In this document: one piece after another, positions 9,687 through 61,145 of the stretch
How positions within the stretch are numbered: the stretch's first letter is position 1
Layout: each line of letters starts with the position of its first letter
Assembly: GCF_009834535.1 (NCBI RefSeq)
Contig: NC_045696.1
Location: 42,534,001-42,598,000, forward strand
DNA from: Camelus ferus
Lineage: Eukaryota
Direction: 5' to 3'
DNA length: 64,000 nucleotides
The notes under the pieces: model-generated
Databases searched by the model: none
Seen by the model: only the letters and a program-made list of their open reading frames with translations
Told to the model about the DNA's origin: nothing
Position numbers and translations under genes: made by a program

Positions 9687-10176
9687 TGTATTAGCCCTGG
9701 TTCTCCAGAGAAAAAGAACTAATAGGATGTATGTATATACAGAGATTTATTTTAAGGAATTGGTTCACGTGATTATGGAGGTGACAAGTCCCAAGATCCG
9801 CAGTGGACAAACCGGAGACCCAAGAGAGCTGGTGATGTATGTCCAGTCTGAAAGCCAGCAGGCTCAAGACCCCAGGAAGAGCTCTTGTTTCAGTTCTAGT
9901 CCTGAGGAAGGAATAAACTGGTGTCCCGGTTAGAAAGGCAGTCAGGTGGGAGTAATTCCCTCTTAGTTACGGGAAGGTTAGCCTTTTTTGTTCTATTCAG
10001 ACTTTCAGCTGATTAAATGGGTCCACTCACATTAGGGAGGGCAATCTGCTTTACTCATTCATTCAAATGTTAGGTCTCATCCAGAAACATCCTACAGACA
10101 CACCCAGAGTAATGTCTGACCAAATGTCTGGGCCATCCTTGGCCCCAGTCAAGTTGACACAAAATGAACCATCACA
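9687..10176 (-). mobile_element. MLT2-type (ERVL) solo LTR
   Basis: Termini tgtattagccctggttctccagagaaa ... cagtcaagttgacacaaaatgaaccatcaca; TG...CA ends; near-TSD gctgg/actgg. Confidence 0.85.
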
Positions 10177-27748: not shown

Positions 27749-27920
27749 TTTTTTAATTGAAGTATAGTTGATTTACAATGTTGTGTTAGTTTCTGGTGTA
27801 CAACAGGGTGATTTGGTTATACACACACACACATATGTATATTCTTTTCATATTTTCCATTATAGGTTGTTACAAGATATTGAATATAGTTCCCTGTGAT
27901 ATACAGTAGGACTTTGTTGT
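27749..27920 (-). mobile_element. Older L1 3' fragment, left half (split by younger L1)
   Basis: ttttaattgaagtatagttgatttacaatgttgtgttagtttctggtgtac..atacagtaggac; the sequence resumes at about 32695. Confidence 0.85.
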
Positions 27921-30900
27921 TTTATTTTATTTAATTTTTTTTTTATTGAGGTATAGTCAGTTTACAATGTTGTGTCAGTTTCTGGTGTACAGCACAATGC
28001 TTCAGTCATACATGGATATACATATGTTCATTTTTGTATTCTTTTTCACTGTAAGCTACTACAAGATATTGACTATATTTCCCTGTGCTATACAGAATAA
28101 ACTTGTTTATATATTTTATTTATACTAGGCAGTATCTGCAAATCTGGAACTCATAGTTTATCCCTTCCCATGCCCTCCGCTGTGGCAACTGCAAGTCTGT
28201 ATTCTATGTCTGTGAGTCTGTCTGTTTTATATATAAGTTCATTTGTCTTTTTTTATTTTAAATTCCCCATATGAGTGATATCATATGGTATTTTTCTTTC
28301 TCTTTCTGGCTTACTTCACTTAGAATGACATTCTCCAGGACCATCCATGTTGCTGCAAATGGCATTATTTTATCATTTTTATGGCTGAGTAGTATTCCGT
28401 TGTATAAATGTAATTGATTCTTCCAATCAAGAGCATGGGATATCTTTCCATTTCTTTAAGTCTTCTTTAATTTCATTAATTAATGTTTTGTAGTTCCCCA
28501 TATATAAGTCTTTCACCTCCTTGGTTAGATTTATTCCTAGGTATTTTATTACTTTGGGTGCTATTTTAAAAGGGAGTGTTTCTTTATTCTCTTTTCCTGT
28601 TGATTCATCCTTAGTGTAAAGTAATGCAACTGATCTTTGTACATTAATCTTCTATTCTGATACCTTGCCGAATTCTTTTGTTAGCTCTAGTAGTTTTTGT
28701 GTAGAGCTTTTAGGGTTTTCTCTATATAGTATAATGTCTGCATATAGTGACAATTTTACCTCTTCTTTTCCAATTTGGATCCCTTTTATTTCTCTCTCTT
28801 GCCTGATTGCTGTGGCTAGGACTTCCAACACGATGTTGAATAGGAGTGGTGATGGTGGGCAACCTTGTTGTGTCCCAGATTTTAGTGGGAAGGTTTTCAG
28901 TTTTTCACCATTGAATACTATGCTGGCTGTAGGTTTGTCATAAATAGCTTTATGTTGAGATATGTTCCCTCTATAGCCACTTTGGTAAGGGTTTTGTTTT
29001 TTTTTTTATCATAAATGGATGTTGAATTTTATCAAATGCTTTTTCTGCATCTATTGAGATGATCATGTGGTTTTTGTCCTTTCTTTTGTCGATGTGGTGT
29101 AACATATTGATTGATTTGGTATGTTGAACCATCCTTGTGTTCCTGGGATGAACCCAACTTGATCATGGTGTATGATCTTTTTTATATGATGTTGGATTCT
29201 GTTTGCTAATATTTTGTTGAGGATTTTTACATCTATGTTCATCAGTGATAATGGTCTTTTCTGGTAGTGTCTTTGCCTGGTTTTGGTATCAGGATGATGG
29301 TGGCTTCATAGAATGAGTTCAGTAGTATTCCCTCCTTTTCAATCTTCTGGAAGAGTTTGTTTGATATTACACAAGAGATGTAATATCCTCATCTTGTATT
29401 TCTCCTTTAATCATTATATAATGTTCTTTATATTTCTTTATGGCCTTTGTTTTAAAATCTATTTTGTCTGAAATCATTATTGCTACTCCTGCTTTCTTGT
29501 TATTTCCATTTGCCTGGAATATCTTTTTCTATCCTCTCACTCTCAATCTATGTGAGTCCTTCTCCCTAAATTGGGCCTCTTGTATGCAGCATATTGTAGG
29601 TTCTTGTTTTACTATCCAGTCTGCCACTCTGTGTCTTTCCATTGGAGCATTTAGTCCATTAACATTTACAGTAATTATTGATAGATAATTATTGATATGT
29701 TTATTGCCATTTGAACTTATTTTTGCAGTTGACTTGGTATTTCCTCTTTGTTCCTTTTTCTTGTGTTTTGATAATTTTCCTTTATATTGTCTTGGTTTCT
29801 TTTTAGTCTTTGTGACTCTATTGTAAGGTTTTTGGTTAGCCTGTTTTGTATGTATATTAACCCATTACTAAATATGTTTGTTTTAAACTGATAGTGATAT
29901 AAGCTCAAACCCATCCTACCAAGAATAAAAAAAAAAAAAACTCTATATATTTTTATGATTTAGATGTCCTCTTTTACAATTCAAGTTTATTCTGTTGCAA
30001 TTCATCGTAGTTATCACCATTCCAATTATGGCTTTCTCCTTTCTGTAGCATCCTGCTTCTTTTCTAGTTAGAATAGACCTTTCAATATTTCTTATAGCAT
30101 AGGTTTCATGTTGATAAATTCTTATAGTTTTTGCTTGTCTATGAAGTTCTTTATCTCTCCTCCTATTCTAAAGGTTAGCCTTCCTGGATAAAGTATCCTA
30201 GGTTGCATCTTTTTTTCATTCAGGACTTTGAATATATCTTGCCACTCCCTTCTGGGACTGCAGTGTTTGTGTAGAGAGATCAGCTGAAAGCCTTATGGGG
30301 GTTCCCTTGTAACTCACTCTTTGTTTTTCTCTTGCTGCCTTTAAAACAATTTCTTTATCCTTAACCCTGGCCATCCTGATTATAATGTCTTGGTGTGGGT
30401 CTGTTAGGGTTCTTCTAATATTTGGACTCCTCTGTGCTTCCTGTACTTGGATATCTGATTCCTTCTTTAGGTTTGGGAAGTTTTCAGTCATGATTTATTC
30501 AAATACCTTTTCAATCCCTTTTGCTCTTCCTTTTCTTTCTGGGAACCCTTTTATGTGTAGGTTGGCACACTTTATATTATCCCATAGGTCCCTTGTATTG
30601 TTTTCATTGGTTTTTATTTGTAATTCTGTCACCTGTTCTGATTGGATGACTTCTGTTGTCCTGCCTTCTAAGTCACTTATCTGTTCCTTTGCATTATCCA
30701 GCCTACTTTTTATAGCCTTTAGCTCAGCTCTCATCTCAGCATATGAGTTTTCCAATTTTAATTGGGTTCTCTTTATAGTTTCAATTTCCTTTTAATATAT
30801 TCTCTGTCTCTATTCACAATCTCTTTTAGGTCCTTCAGTACTTTGAGCACTCCTTTTTTGAAGTCAGGATCTAGTAGACTATCAAGGTCTATTTCATTGA

Positions 30901-32690
30901 TTGTTCTTTCAGGGGATTTCTCATATTCTTTTAATTGGGAGTGGTTCTTCTGCGTCTTCATTTTACATATATCTCTCTGGCACTATGGATTATGGAATAT
31001 CAGTCATCTACTGTGGTCCTGAGGGGGTTTATTTGTTTATTTATCTAAAGTGGATTTGGAAATAAAACTAAAAGATTTGAAAACAGTATAATCAATAACA
31101 GAAGAACAAAACAAACAGAAATAAAAATCAAATAGAGAAATTTTTAAAAATTAATAAAAAAATTTTTAAAGAAAATTTTAAGTGATTTAAAAAATAAAAA
31201 AGTTTAAAAAAAAAAACTAAAAAAAGAAAAAGAAAAAAGAAAGGAGAAAAAAAAGGTCAGTGTGTTCCCGTGGAGGCTGCCTGCTTAATAATTTTGTCAC
31301 GAGGTCCCTCTTAAATATAGGTGGTTGCCAAGTCTTCCTTCTAGGCCTTTCGTCTGTTATCCCTTTGGCTGGGGGTGTGGCCAGTGTTGTGGTGTGAGAG
31401 CCTGCCCTGGCTATTGAGCTGGGCCTTTTTGTTCTGTGGTTGTCGCACTTACTGCCCTCACCCTCTGAGGGAACTCTGCTACCTGGTTCCAGAGGTGCTC
31501 GGGTCGTGCCTCAGGTCTGTGCAGGTAGGCGGGCGGGTCTCGCCCCCTCCCAACACTGCTTTCCGGCGCCGCGCTTGCGCATGGTAGTTGGGCGCGTCGC
31601 TCCCCATTCAGTGACCTTTAGGTGGGCGGGCTGCGCCCCAGTCTGTGCTGCTCTCAGTGCAGGCAGTGGGTGGGTCGCACCGCCTCCCAACGCTGTGTTC
31701 TGCTGCTGCGCTCCCGCATGGTAGGTGAGTGGGTTGTTCCCCTGTTTTGTGCCACTCTTCGCACTGCAGTAGGGTCTGCACTCCTAGGCGGGCTTGGAGA
31801 GAAGGGCGGCACCAGCCCTCAGGCCTGTGTGTGTCAGAACTCAACTCCTTGTTCCTGTGTCTTAGAGGCGCGAGTTTATAGAGACACTGCGGCAGAACAG
31901 TCCCTTCTGCCTAGGGCTGTAAACAAATCTCTGTCCTGCCTGGCTGCTAGGTAAGGATTCGGGTTTCAACCCCACCTCCGCCTGGGAGCGGTGCCCCAGG
32001 GAACATGGCGGCTGCGGCTGAGCCCCGCCTCTCTTCTCCGGAGAACACGGCAGTAATGGCGCCAAGGGTCTGCGGAGACAAAGGCTGCGGCGCCCCTCCC
32101 CTCAGGACACACTAGCAGTATTGCTTTGCTTTTTTTTTTTTTTTTCTTTCATTTTTTTCATAGGCGACCCAGGCTATTCTGATCTATATACCCTCCCGGC
32201 CATGGCGCACAGCACACACACTGCAGTCCCCCGAGGTTGCCTCTGTACAGCCAGGCCCGAGTTCTCCCGGCTCGGCCATCTGTCCTGTCCCGCCCACCAT
32301 TGCCAGTTCATGTGTAGGGCTGGGGGCCACGGGTGCCCTTTGTGCCCGTTTATCTTAGTTCTGTCGGTTAAGCGCTATTCCATACAGATCCGAGCCTCGG
32401 AGGTTCCCGCTCCATCCCGCTGACTTCTCTGTTGGAGAAGCGGAGACCCAGTGAAGGGGCGCTGTTCCGCCTTTGCCGCTCCCTCCCCACGGGACCAGTC
32501 TCGCACTGTTTTCCTTTTTCTTCTTTCCTCTTCTGCTACCAGATTTGTGGTGTATTTTGTCTTTTGAAGACTGCGATGTTAGAGTTCAGCAGGTGTTCTG
32601 AGTGGAAGGGTGGGTCTGTGGATGTCAGTCTTGGGGTATTTGTGGGAGAGGGTGAGCTACCAGCGTCCTTCTACTCCGCCATCTTGTCCC
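27921..32690 (-). mobile_element. L1 with intact 5' and 3' termini (about 4.8 kb), disrupted ORF1, ORF2 with two large internal deletions
   Basis: T-rich tail and 3' UTR at about 27921-28260. ORF2 C-terminus about 28260-28410, RT region 28410-29360, endonuclease N-terminus 29380-29710 (ATG at 29710). ORF1 pieces in the ORF track (MKTQKNHSQLKE.., ..RDLWDNIKCANLHIKGFPE, MTENFPNL..KAAREKQRVSYKGTPIRLSADLS). GC/CpG-rich 5' UTR beginning with the YY1 motif CAAGATGGCGG (32676-32686). Confidence 0.95.
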
Positions 32691-32694
32691 TTCT

Positions 32695-32870
32695 CATTTT
32701 TTTTTATATATGTTTATCTGCTAATCCCAAACTCCTCACTTTTCCCTCCTCCCCTTTCCCCTTTGGCAACCAAAAGTTTATTTTCTATGTCTCTGAGTCT
32801 CTTTTTGTTTTGTAAATAAGTTCATTTGTATCATTTTTTAGATTCCACATACAAGCGATATCATAGAATA
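32695..32870 (-). mobile_element. Older L1 3' fragment, right half
   Basis: tatctgctaatcccaaactcct..ctttggcaaccaaaagttt..tttttagattccacatacaagcgatatcata continues the 27749-27920 fragment. Confidence 0.85.
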
Positions 32871-51430: not shown

Positions 51431-52676
51431 TCCAATGCAGAAGATAAGGTTGCCACATGTTTACAAAAAAAAAAAAAAAAAAGATTTGTCATTACCAAAT
51501 CATTTCAGGGAAATAATTGGAATTTATCCCCTTTTTGTAGCCACTGTTTTGTGAAGCTTCTTTGACAGAAAGCCCATGTGCTCTGTTTTAGTGGAGAAAT
51601 ACGCACATGGGCGGACTCGATATAGATTCATGTCTTAGTGATGACGTGTATCCTCCATCCCCAAATTCCTGGTGGTAACCGTCAGAGGATGGAAAAAAGA
51701 ACCCAGAAGTGAAGTTTGCCAGTATGTCTTCCAGGAAAAGTACTGAGTGAATGATTTCGTCTGTTCTGTGAAGACCAACTGATGTAATATTCAGGAAACT
51801 GAACATGATGTGGTATTGTTTTATGGACTTTCGTAGCTCTTAAGGGAGCGTGGTGGTGGAAATGAACAGTGTTGGAGAGAGACCACTCCTCAGCACTGGT
51901 TTTACAGACTCTCCTACAGGATGTTACAGGGACTCAGGCGGAGGACACATTCTATCACAAGTCTAATTCTGTAGATAGGGCACTAATTATCTATGCAGGA
52001 ACACCTCTTTCCAGCTCATTGTTCTGGGCTCCTAAGAGCTTCAAATGTAATTTAATAATTACTTTTCTAATCCAAAAATCAGCAGATGAATGTCCCACAT
52101 AGTTCATCTGAAGGGATCTTAACATGATTAAAATGAATCACCCAGGCTCATTCAGATGCCTTGAATGGGCAATGCAGCACAGTGCAAGGAGAACCAGTCT
52201 AGAAGCCAGGATAGCTGACCAAGGCTGGAATCTCCCCCAGCAAGCTGTATGTGATGTTTAACTCTCTCTGTCAGCTTGACTGGGCCACAGAGTGCCCAGA
52301 CATTTAGGCCCAACGTTACTATTTTGGGTTGTTGGCATGGATCTTTCTGGAAGAGATTAGCATTTGAATGGGTAGACTGGGTCAAGGAGATTGTCCTCCC
52401 TAGTGTGGGTGGGCCCCATCCAATCACTTGAAGGCCTGAAGAGAACGAAAAGCTGGCCATACCTCAACTAGAAGGAGAATTCCTCCTCCAGCCTGAACAG
52501 GAGCTAGGGCACGGTTTTTTCCTTACCTTCAGACTTCAGTGGAAACAATGGCTCTTCCTAGGTCTCGAGCCTGCCAGCATTCCGACTGGAAATAGAAACA
52601 TTTGCTCTTCTGGGTCTCCAGCTGACTGCAGATCTTGGGACCTCTCAGTCTCCATGATCATGTAAGCCAAGTTCTT

Positions 52677-53030
52677 TTTTTTTTTTTTTTCAATTGAAGT
52701 ATAGTCAGTTTACAATGTTGTGTCAATTTCTGGTGTACAGCATAATGTTTCAGTTATACATGAACATACATATATTCATTTCATGTTCTTTTTCACTATT
52801 AGGTACTACAAGATATTGAATATAGTTCCCTGTGCTGTATGGTATAAACTTACTGTTTATCCGATTTGGTGAGGACTTTCTTTGTAATTACAAAAGTAAG
52901 AGATACTCTACCAAAGTTCAGTAGGTGTTTTGTGTGAATTGTTCCATATGTAGATGTAGTTTTTTTTTGTATTCATGGGAGAGGGTGAGCACCGTGTCCT
53001 TCTACTCCACCATCCTGGTAGTCCTCCCCC
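52677..53030 (-). mobile_element. Mini-L1: about 170 nt of L1 5' UTR fused to about 170 nt of L1 3' end plus poly(A)
   Basis: Poly(T) to 52690; 3' end resembles 27945-28110; 52861-53015 resembles 32540-32686; TSD AAGTTCTT at 52669-52676 and 53032-53039. Confidence 0.9.
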
Positions 53031-53107
53031 TAAGTTCTTATAATAAATATTCCCCCATGTATGTATGTATATATGTATGCATATATATGTATACACACAC
53101 ACATATG

Positions 53108-53145
<38 letters not shown>

Positions 53146-53351: not shown

Positions 53352-55695
53352 CTCTCTCTCGCTGACTAATTCACTTTGGGACCTTGGGAAAATCAACACA
53401 GCTTTCTGAACCCCAGTTTTCCTTATTTGTGGAGTGAAAGAATTCAACAATATAAGGTCCATTGTAGCGCCAAGGTACAATCTAGCTCTTAAATTTATAA
53501 TTTATATGACATTTCTTGGCTCCCTCAGAAACGTTTGTCTCATTATCCCTGGGAAGCGAACAGAATGTATTTGTTTTCTTTCATCTCCCCATTTGTCAGA
53601 GGCCTTTGAAAAATTCCTCTCTCTCCCTTCTTGATGTTCTGTTCTACCCTAGGCCACCCTGTGGACAGAGCAAATGCCTCAGACAGGAGCCGTGACTGGC
53701 TACACTCACCCTCTCTCTAAGCTGCTCTGCCAAAGGAGAGGCTTCCTCTCAAATAGAATGACTAGCAATAGGTTAGTTATGTTGGAAAAAAACAGCGAGT
53801 TTATTCAAGTATCATGGTCCTCAGTGAAAGAAACACGGAAGGTACTGCGGTGCTGAAGTAGGTGGATCTTTTGTTATTATTTGCAAGGCTCTCCCCGGTG
53901 GGCACTGCCCAGACCAGCCTGACGCCCCTCGTCCTCGTGGCTGGCAGCTGTGGAGCGCAGTCAGTTCCCTGGTTCTCCTCCAAGGTGAGCAGGGTCAGCT
54001 TTAAACAGCTTTGCTGTCAAGCAGCCTCATATTTGACTCCAAGCCCCTGACCTCACAAATCTTGAGGCTGGCACGGAAGTCGGTGAGTCCTTCTGCCTCC
54101 AGATTCCCCACAGGCCCTTCTCTCCTCTTACAAACAGTGCCTCATCAAGGCTCTGCCAGCCCACAGCAGAGCTGCAATTAGTCAGTGCAGCCATATTTCA
54201 ACGGTAATACAGTATTTTCTTTCACCGGGCATCCTTTCTTGTGGTCCCAAATTAAGCACCCACGAAAGAAAAACTGCCCTTGCAAATTTGGCCCTTCCTA
54301 TTAAATCACAGAGCCGACTTTGAGCTTTGTCAAATGATTGTCAACAAAGAGGGTGAGATTACACTGTCATTTTCTTATTAGCATTTCATTTAAAACATTA
54401 CCATATCAAACTGAGTTAATTCTCCTCCGGGTATAAATATTTAAATTTTCCAAGCTCCCATTATGTTCCTCGCCCCCATTTTATTCTTCACACAAGACAA
54501 AAATGAACATGATCCATGGAAGTGTCTGTTAGTCTCACTTAAGGCAAGGAGGAGATGGAAGAGGAACTGGTTCATGAGACGACAGATGTCCCAGGAAGGA
54601 AATATCTCCAAAATAAGACTCCTATGTCAACTCCTGTCTTCTTAAGTGACAGGGATGTTCCTAACTAAAATTATATCTGGCATGTCATTTCAAGTAAATG
54701 AGCTAAATAATGATGATGTCTGCAGATAGATACGTGTTTATATGTAATAGGTTACTTGAAGGTACTTACTGTCGGGGCAGAACCCTTTTGGGATGTGCCC
54801 ACTTGATCCTACTCTGCTCCCTTGTGTCACTGACATCTCCAGGTCACCACCAGGAAGCTAGACACTCCATGGGAACAGTCCTGGAAAAGGAAAGAAAAGA
54901 TCTAGTTTCCACTTTTGCTTCTGCTTCCGGAACTGTGGGCCAGCAGAGCACTAACGGGTCGGTCTGTATGGATGGGGCATTGTGTGGACCAGCTCAGAAA
55001 GATTGACGGTTCCAGTTCTCTGAAGTTAGTTAGTGGCCAGAGATTGGACTAGAAGGACAAGGGTGAGCAATCTGCTTGTCCAGTTTTTGATTTGCCCGAC
55101 CACACGTGTCCACTCTCTTACTTTTGACACCTGCAACCATAAGTTAAAGATTGATGATGAAAACACTTGATCATCTGGGAAGCGTTTTACAAAATCCTGT
55201 GTAGGCTTGTGGCATTCCACACTAATGCTATGAGGTTGTTTTTATTTTGCACGCAGCTGTGTAATAACTGAGCCCTGGGACAGCCCGCGGGACAATTGTG
55301 AATATAGCAATGCTTGTCTTTGGTCTCTCTGAGAGAAAAAAATATGGAGAGGTGTGGCTATTGTGCTGTATTAACATTTAGTTGTGCACCAATGACCAGG
55401 AGAGAATTGCCAATATCTGTGAGTAGGGCTTTACTTGAAGGTGTGATCACTCTGGGTATGAGTCTACTGGAGAATCTACATCTTTTAAAATGAGGACAAA
55501 AACTCAAAGGGTCTACACAGGTGAGCTACAGAGTTTGAATCTGTCTGTCTTGGTCTTGATTATAAATATATCATATGTATGTGTAAAATGAAAAATTATG
55601 TGTGCTTGTATATGTCTATGTTTACTTCATGTGGAGGCCTTATTTCCCTACAAACTTTTCCAAAATGACTGAAGTAGTCTCTAAAATGCAGTTCT

Positions 55696-55859
55696 GGAGG
55701 AGAGGATATAGGTCAGTGGTGGAGCGCATGCTTAGCATGCACGAGGTCCTGGGTTCAATCCCCAGTACCTCCATATAAATAAATAAATAAAAACCTAATT
55801 ACCTCCCTTTCCAAAAAAATAAATAAATGAAGTAAAATCAATATTTAAAAAAAAAAAAA
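55696..55859 (+). mobile_element. tRNA-Ala-derived SINE (camelid Vic-1-like)
   Basis: A box-like taggtcagtggt, cttAGCatgc, B box gggttcaatccc, aacctaattacctccc body, A-rich tail, TSD gcagttct (55688-55695 and 55860-55867). Confidence 0.9.
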
Positions 55860-60810: not shown

Positions 60811-61043
60811 AGCTAACAGTCTCAAAGAGTAACAAGCTAGAAATATGAATGTAAAATTACAGATTTTAAGTAAGAAGCATGCAAGGAACTCCTTCCCAAA
60901 GACTGGTCCTTTAAGGATGTTGAACTAGAAAAGACTTCTCATGTATGCAGAGAGGAAAATTCTCTTCTTAATAGTTGGTAGGAGAATTCTATTGTGTGGG
61001 GCTAGGGGGGGAGGAGGTCCTGCTTTCCTTAAAAGAAGCTGTG

Positions 61044-61145
61044 GGGGGAGGGTAATAGCTCAATGGTAGGGCCCTTGCTTAGCATGCACGAGGTCCTGGG
61101 TTCAATCCCCAGTACCACTGTAAATTTTTTTTTTTAAATTGGAAA
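61044..61145 (+). mobile_element. tRNA-Ala-derived SINE, short form
   Basis: ggggagggtaatagctcaatggtag..cttagcatgcacgaggtcctgggttcaatccccagtacc; perfect 13-bp TSD aaaagaagctgtg (61031-61043 and 61146-61158). Confidence 0.92.

What the first reader, a model, noticed from the sequence alone, without database searches (positions are those of the whole stretch)
52669..53039. Apparently spliced, retrotransposed mini-L1 (5' end joined to 3' end) with its own TSD; possible non-autonomous family
Seen: a ~355-bp insertion with a poly(A) tail and 8-bp TSD (AAGTTCTT) made only of the first ~170 nt and last ~170 nt of an L1. In element sense the junction at 52861/52860 reads caccaaatcgg|ataaacagtaag. The long L1 in this window reads caccacaaatctg|GTAGCA at the homologous 5' point (GT = complement of 32539-32538), so the break falls exactly at a GT. 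Recalled: the cetartiodactyl L1 3' consensus has aaaatAG|ataaac at the 3' point (the copy near 28110 has aatat|ataaac). Inference: the whole ORF1-ORF2 region was removed as one intron and the RNA was mobilised in trans. This resembles primate spliced L1 insertions (SpIREs) but is more extreme. Because it keeps the promoter start and the tail, it could have amplified as a SINE-like parasite of L1. Caveat: the presumed acceptor is A-rich with no polypyrimidine tract.
Basis: partly seen in the sequence, partly recalled or inferred. Interest (0 to 1): 0.75.

Follow-up and report, generated by a model that had tools for sequence, protein, structure and literature searches.

The report
Probably spliced, gene-less mini-L1 insertion
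This 355-base insertion holds only the two ends of an L1 jumping gene, most likely because its whole protein-coding middle was spliced out of the RNA before it was copied back into the genome; whether it belongs to a large family was not shown here.

Summary
Window 52677-53031 (minus strand) is 171 nt of L1 5' end, 170 nt of L1 3' end and an A14-16 tail. It lies between 8-bp target-site duplications at an L1-endonuclease-like site in an old LTR.

The 5' break falls on GT in two references: the long L1 of this window and pig L1B consensus sequences. The AG at the 3' break was not seen in DNA: the window's L1 reads AT and pig L1B reads GG. Translated L1 tails from public assemblies split into an AG-compatible type (22 of 150) and a GG type (27 of 150). 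The closest hit is AG-compatible.

Best reading: a spliced L1 RNA, retrotransposed in trans, an ORF-less extreme of human SpIREs (0.6). Rivals: plain internal deletion (0.2) or a self-amplifying SINE-like family (0.2). Both splice sites are weak, and a neighbouring L1 has a non-splice deletion.

Unchecked notes from this scan describe similar families of hundreds of copies in other genomes.

The parts
53032..53039 (-). Target-site duplication, 5' copy (AAGAACTT in element sense); the + strand reads TCTT/A at its edge, one mismatch from the L1 endonuclease site TTTT/A
   Evidence: site consensus as quoted in PMC5860796
52861..53031 (-). L1 5' end, 171 nt: one extra A, G5 start, decayed YY1-like box near 53017-53009 (motif recalled), ends in CGG at the presumed donor
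   Evidence: 74% to long L1 32686-32583; same 5'UTR type as pig L1B consensus heads, compared by eye
52860..52861 (-). Junction CGG|ATAAAC; parent 5' side continues GTAG, parent 3' side is preceded by AT (window L1), GG (pig L1B) or inferred AG
52691..52860 (-). L1 3'UTR end, 170 nt
   Evidence: 85% to long L1 tail 28104-27927
52677..52690 (-). Poly(A) tail, 14 A (16 with the AA of the TSD)
52669..52676 (-). Target-site duplication, 3' copy
52269..53050 (+). Old LTR that received the insertion (MLT1-like; name recalled); paralogous copy at about 9743-10159 lacks the insert
   Evidence: 71% over 425 nt; flank mapping
27927..32690 (-). Long L1 used as local reference: both ends present, ORF2 lacks about aa 112-494 and 810-1220; donor-homologous GT at 32539-32538, 3' break homologue at 28111/28110

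Best explanation
A full-length L1 was transcribed by Pol II from its 5'UTR promoter. The spliceosome joined a cryptic donor about 170 nt into the 5'UTR (GG|GTAG) to a cryptic acceptor 170 nt before the poly(A) site (inferred AG|ATAAAC), removing the rest of the 5'UTR and both ORFs as one intron of several kb. The 340-nt capped, polyadenylated RNA encodes nothing, so ORF2p from another L1 copied it in trans by target-primed reverse transcription into an old LTR, leaving an 8-bp duplication. Being short, it was copied to its very 5' end. Fixed splice sites would make the same product again and again from active L1s, so more copies with this junction are expected. Each is probably dead on arrival, because about 90% of the 5'UTR is gone. 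Shown: anatomy, TSD, GT at the 5' break in two references. Inferred: AG in the true parent, splicing itself, trans-mobilisation, recurrence, lack of promoter activity.
For: TSD, tail, endonuclease-like site and G-run start. GT exactly at the 5' break in the window's long L1 and in 7 of 7 pig L1B heads shown, of 14 motif occurrences in that file. GT occurs at only 3.0-3.5% of positions in that 5'UTR. At the 3' break, 22 of 150 translated related tails have Leu (fits sense AG) against 27 with Pro (sense GG). The best hit P0001 (65%), the only in-register hit with the mini's KL tail type, has Leu. The window copy (AT) and pig (GG) are each one change from AG. The two break contexts in the long L1 are no more alike than random pairs (3 of 10, 6 of 16, 7 of 20 matches; p 0.48, 0.21, 0.23). 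Rough joint chance of GT and AG at a random deletion: 0.035 x 0.078, about 0.3% per register (frequencies). Precedent: human L1 RNA is spliced from a 5'UTR donor to several acceptors and the products retrotranspose, some in trans (PMC5860796; PMC2896524).
Against: AG was not read in DNA of any parent. Leu could also be TTA/TTG, and the organisms behind those peptides are unnamed. The donor is weak: 5 of 9 matches to the U1 consensus, tied for rank 5-10 among 59 GT sites of the 5'UTR. The acceptor has no polypyrimidine tract (45% pyrimidine in 20 nt, A-rich). With a pig-type parent the two breaks share TGG, a usable microhomology. The neighbouring long L1 has two deletions of over 1 kb; the one that could be checked has a shared TA and no GT..AG against pig consensus. 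The finding was picked because a GT was seen, so the chance figure is too small. No second junction copy was found: 0 in the window with up to 3 mismatches, and 0 of 150 peptides run on into the 5' head.
Confidence: 0.6

Rival explanations
1. Ordinary internal deletion, single copy. Either the reverse transcriptase jumped from near the 3' end to near the 5' end of an L1 RNA (or onto a second L1 RNA), or a full-length L1 inserted and later lost its middle by double-strand-break repair. The GT at the break is chance.
For: The TSD cannot separate a short insertion from a later deletion (inference). The long L1 20 kb away has lost about 380 and 410 ORF2 codons, and its second deletion has a 2-nt microhomology and no splice signal. 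Splice sites are weak. Pig-type break contexts share TGG. The mini's head is only 74% like the long L1 while its tail is 85% alike, so two templates are not excluded.
Against: GT at the break in two references, 3% expected per position. An AG-compatible tail class exists and includes the closest relative. No excess similarity of the break contexts in the local L1. No filler bases at the junction.
Confidence: 0.2
2. A self-amplifying, ORF-less, bipartite non-autonomous L1 family. One or a few integrated minis stayed transcribed, from the 171-nt head or a neighbouring promoter, and served as source elements, spreading like a Pol II SINE at the expense of L1.
For: It keeps the extreme 5' end and the tail, as bipartite non-autonomous LINEs do (PMC5786205). 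L1 proteins mobilise poly(A) RNAs in trans (PMC5860796). A human SpIRE regained activity from a host promoter (PMC13174262, passages).
Against: No copy data here. The long L1's 5'UTR is about 1.7 kb and only 171 nt remain. Human SpIREs with smaller losses have weak promoters and are dead ends (PMC5860796). This copy's YY1-like box and poly(A) signal are mutated (motifs recalled). The RNA folds no better than shuffles (z -0.01).
Confidence: 0.2

Closest known systems
SpIREs, spliced integrated retrotransposed elements of human L1 (Larson et al. 2018, PMC5860796; I saw passages, the author summary and part 1 of 2 of the Discussion)
   Same: L1 copy with TSD and tail whose internal deletion starts at a GT in the first 200 nt of the 5'UTR; loss of promoter sequence; the 5'UTR/ORF1 class needs protein in trans.
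   Different: Described SpIREs end at acceptors in the 5'UTR or ORF1 (97/622, 97/790, 97/853, 97/976) and keep ORF2; 131 of 6,609 full-length L1s. Here the presumed acceptor is in the 3'UTR, both ORFs are gone, the element is 355 bp, and the lineage is not primate. The AG is inferred, not seen.
Bipartite ORF-absent non-autonomous LINEs (Bov-A, RIME, NARTc, RTESINE, Vingi derivatives; Kojima 2018, PMC5786205, passages seen)
   Same: Only the extreme 5' and 3' parts of a LINE, no ORF, presumed Pol II transcript moved in trans.
   Different: That paper lists only the RTE, Ingi, Vingi and R2 clades as producers and ascribes them to internal deletion. An L1 case made by splicing is not among them. 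Family status is not shown for this element.
HAL1 (half-L1; known to me from passages in PMC5786205 and a pig consensus label in PMC6501411 supplement 1)
   Same: Non-autonomous, internally deleted L1 derivative in mammals.
   Different: HAL1 keeps ORF1 and is kilobases long; this element has no ORF1 sequence.
SpORF2 and other spliced human L1 RNAs (Belancio et al. 2010, PMC2896524, passages seen)
   Same: Long-range splicing from a 5'UTR donor, found in testis and ovary.
   Different: The acceptors reported there (1837, 1920) lie before ORF2; a 3'UTR acceptor is not in the passages I saw.

Membership tests
SpIRE | TPRT hallmarks: TSD, poly(A) tail, endonuclease-like site | tested here: met
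SpIRE | Deletion begins at a GT donor of the parent L1 | tested here: met
   GT in the window's long L1 and in pig L1B heads; the true parent was not available
SpIRE | Deletion ends at an AG acceptor of the parent L1 | tested here: inconclusive
   AT in the window copy, GG in pig; 22 of 150 translated tails AG-compatible, including the best hit
SpIRE | Same junction in independent insertions | not testable with these tools
   No genome held; microbial and viral collections hold no copy
SpIRE | The spliced RNA is detected | not tested
   RNA runs hold the locus but no reads were laid
SpIRE | Described classes splice within the 5'UTR or into ORF1 and keep ORF2 | tested here: not met
   No ORF1 or ORF2 sequence; the junction leads straight into the 3'UTR. 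It works like a SpIRE but is not one of the described classes
Bipartite ORF-absent non-autonomous LINE | Only the 5' and 3' ends of a LINE, extreme 5' end kept, no ORF | tested here: met
Bipartite ORF-absent non-autonomous LINE | Amplified as a multi-copy family from its own source copies | not testable with these tools
   No genome held; no second copy reached
HAL1 | Keeps ORF1 | tested here: not met
SINE (Pol III) | Head derived from tRNA, 7SL or 5S RNA | tested here: not met
   No Rfam match at E up to 1; the head is L1 5'UTR

The most novel reading that the evidence does not exclude
This is one copy of an undescribed family of ORF-less mini-L1s born by 5'UTR-to-3'UTR splicing, some of whose members were themselves re-transcribed and amplified: a Pol II, SINE-like parasite of L1, in a clade not listed as producing bipartite ORF-less elements. 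Its birth would hinge on one base in the L1 tail (AG-type tails can make it, GG-type tails as in pig L1B cannot), which predicts which lineages carry it.
Probability: 0.2. Interest if true: 0.75.

Novelty: new variant of a known kind. Interest (0 to 1): 0.48.

Why it matters
If the splice origin and recurrence hold, L1 can lose its whole coding body in one splice and the leftover RNA still gets copied into the germ-line genome. That extends SpIREs beyond primates and to an ORF-less extreme. It also gives a concrete route from L1 to a short bipartite parasite, which a 2018 survey found only for other LINE clades. The AG versus GG tail types give a simple cross-species test, and the ratio of spliced to unspliced heads would record how often ancient L1 RNA was spliced. 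If it is a single deletion, it is an ordinary broken L1.

Tried and rejected

Searches for further copies in microbial and viral collections found none. The 5'-motif/gap/3'-motif pattern in metagenome contigs gave 2 loci, both chance matches in bacterial-looking coding DNA. Tail patterns in viral contigs gave 0 and 0. The head pattern in viral contigs gave 3, all chance. Tail patterns in GTDB contigs gave 0 and 1, the one an archaeal MAG matching 23 nt only. Plasmids and phages: no match. These collections are not expected to hold mammal repeats, so the blanks say nothing about copy number.

Word-indexed protein searches with readings across the junction found no candidate, although HMMER found 178 relatives, so those blanks are not informative. 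None of 150 peptides continues into the 5' head; the single E<1e-3 match (P0144) lies inside its tail part and is spurious. In that frame a sister copy would stop two codons after the break, and minis would be a small share of all tails, so this is a weak test.

No depth across the junction was obtained from reads or contigs, so copy number and RNA evidence remain open. RNA runs X8 and X16 hold flank and element alike (0.82, 0.70), which fits DNA carry-over or intronic RNA and is not evidence of an element transcript; small shares (X17-X20) were not used.

No structure signal. No Rfam family. No camelid L1 tail DNA was found in full texts or in the supplements of PMC4476161 (3 files searched, 1 not searchable), PMC12849490, PMC10756906 and PMC7830431. 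PMC8605555 has no readable supplement, and its camelid repeat libraries could hold a matching consensus. Belancio 2006 is not held. Earlier scan notes gave no sequence link to this element.

Full report
Anatomy. On the minus strand the element reads: TSD (53039-53032), one extra A, a G5 start, 171 nt of L1 head to 52861, 170 nt of L1 tail from 52860, 14-16 A, TSD (52676-52669). The head matches the long L1 of this window at 32686-32583 (74% over 105 nt) and the tail matches its end at 28104-27927 (85% over 178 nt); an older tail at 27922-27749 matches at 75%. No ORF1 or ORF2 sequence is present, and the longest stop-free sense reading across the junction is 45 codons. Rfam gives no match and the RNA folds no better than shuffles.

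One insertion event. The insert lies in an old LTR with a 71% paralogue at 9754-10159 (the name MLT1 is recalled). Aligned separately, the left flank ends and the right flank begins on the same 8 bases of that paralogue, so the 8-mer was duplicated on insertion. The + strand reads TCTT/A at the edge, close to the endonuclease site quoted in PMC5860796. Of 24 runs listed, 16 hold half or more of the words of a 751-base stretch that is half flank and half element; 12 rows labelled with organisms A, B and C hold 0.78-0.85. The insertion is therefore real DNA shared by three species labels, not an assembly artefact. Earlier notes on this genome call it camel (not checked by me). A TSD shows that both ends belong to one event; it does not show that the insert was short when it landed.

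The 5' break. The mini ends its head with CAAATCGG; the long L1 has CAAATCTG and continues GTAG at 32539. Pig L1B consensus heads are of the same 5'UTR type and read CTGG then GTAG at the homologous point in 7 of 7 places shown, of 14 occurrences of the motif (PMC6501411, supplement 1, passages; compared by eye). GT occupies 3.0-3.5% of positions in the long L1's 5'UTR. As a donor it is modest: 5 of 9 matches to the U1 consensus, tied for rank 5-10 of 59.

The 3' break. The long L1 reads AT before ATAAAC. To sample more parents I searched the antisense reading of the tail (52705-52869, +) with HMMER: 178 hits, 150 listed, spurious translations of related L1 tails (ten looked up came from ENA and Logan assemblies, without names). 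The residue over the break is Leu in 22 (fits sense AG), Pro in 27 (sense GG) and another residue in 13; 27 are out of register, 58 end earlier and 3 have no anchor (its printed Leu count of 24 includes two cluster mates added). The best hit, P0001 (65%), is the only in-register hit with the mini's KL tail type and has Leu. An AG-type tail thus probably exists, and AG is the single step between the window's AT and pig's GG. Limits: Leu may be TTA or TTG, the organisms are unknown, and no polypyrimidine tract precedes the site (45% pyrimidine).

Splicing or deletion. In the long L1 the two break contexts are no more alike than random pairs (p 0.21-0.48), which does not favour a homology-driven jump; with pig-type sequences they would share TGG. 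GT and AG together are expected at about 0.3% of random deletions per register (frequencies), but the finding was selected for its GT and the AG is inferred. Against splicing, the long L1 itself lacks ORF2 residues of about 112-494 and 810-1220. At the second deletion the ends share TA and no register gives GT..AG against pig consensus; the first has filler-like bases and could not be resolved. Large non-splice deletions thus occur in this lineage. I put a splice origin at about 0.75-0.8 overall.

Family or single copy. This could not be decided. No genome is held, no depth across the junction was obtained, and the collections searched hold no mammal genome. The window has no second junction, and 0 of 150 peptides run into the head, both weak tests. 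Four earlier notes of this scan describe 350-390-bp head-plus-tail mini-L1s with one hundred to several hundred copies in other genomes (e1-8045153, e1-7855650, e1-8044763, e1-8045108). They are unchecked, give no organism, and no sequence look-up linked them to this element. They raised my expectation of recurrence, but they are not evidence, and they show that the idea is not new within this scan.

Mechanism. Most likely: Pol II transcription of a full-length L1, one splice from the 5'UTR donor to a 3'UTR acceptor, capture of the short poly(A) RNA by another L1's ORF2p, and target-primed reverse transcription. Fixed splice sites would yield the same product repeatedly without the integrated minis being active. 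Self-amplification is possible but less likely: about 90% of the 5'UTR is missing, and human SpIREs with smaller losses are dead ends (PMC5860796), with a known exception driven by a host promoter (PMC13174262, passages).

What is known. Human SpIREs use one donor and acceptors in the 5'UTR or ORF1. Spliced RNAs reaching to just before ORF2 occur in testis and ovary (PMC2896524, passages). Kojima 2018 states that ORF-absent bipartite non-autonomous LINEs are reported only for RTE, Ingi, Vingi and R2, while HAL1 keeps ORF1 (PMC5786205, passages). A camelid repeat survey lists no such element in the passages seen (PMC8605555; supplements unreadable). Ten searches of the paper library (listings and abstract starts only, apart from the papers named) showed no description of a 5'UTR-to-3'UTR spliced L1 copy.

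Verdict. It is best filed as a new, ORF-less variant of the spliced-L1 retrocopy kind, with the acceptor inferred and the copy number untested. Interest 0.48; 0.75 if it proves to be a self-amplifying family.

Noticed in passing
window 27927-32690 (-): L1 with both ends intact but only 4.76 kb long: ORF2 lacks about aa 112-494 (junction near 29370, about 20 filler-like bases) and about aa 810-1220 (junction near 28405, shared TA). It could be a single doubly deleted copy or a member of a deleted family.
   Followed up: partly
window 32700-32865 and 27749-27922 (-): The long L1 is nested in an older L1 tail and interrupts it at almost the same A-rich point that forms the mini's 3' break.
   Followed up: partly
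P0001-P0150: Related L1 tails fall into two types at one position (Pro, sense GG, mostly with a DL motif; Leu, AG-compatible, mostly with a VL motif), a possible subfamily marker that would decide whether the cryptic acceptor exists.
   Followed up: partly
P0001 residues 84-89: After the break residue the best hit leaves the tail and reads SAII, like the antisense reading of an L1 start; it could be a still shorter head-tail join or chance. No DNA was available.
   Followed up: no
window 55681-55769 and 61028-61116: An 83% direct repeat of about 90 nt, not identified.
   Followed up: no
window 31516-31605 and 31654-31742: An internal 74% tandem-like repeat in the long L1's 5'UTR.
   Followed up: no
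window 53059-53145: A compound TA/CA microsatellite 20 nt from the mini's 5' TSD, at the point where the paralogous LTR has a short TA-rich stretch.
   Followed up: no
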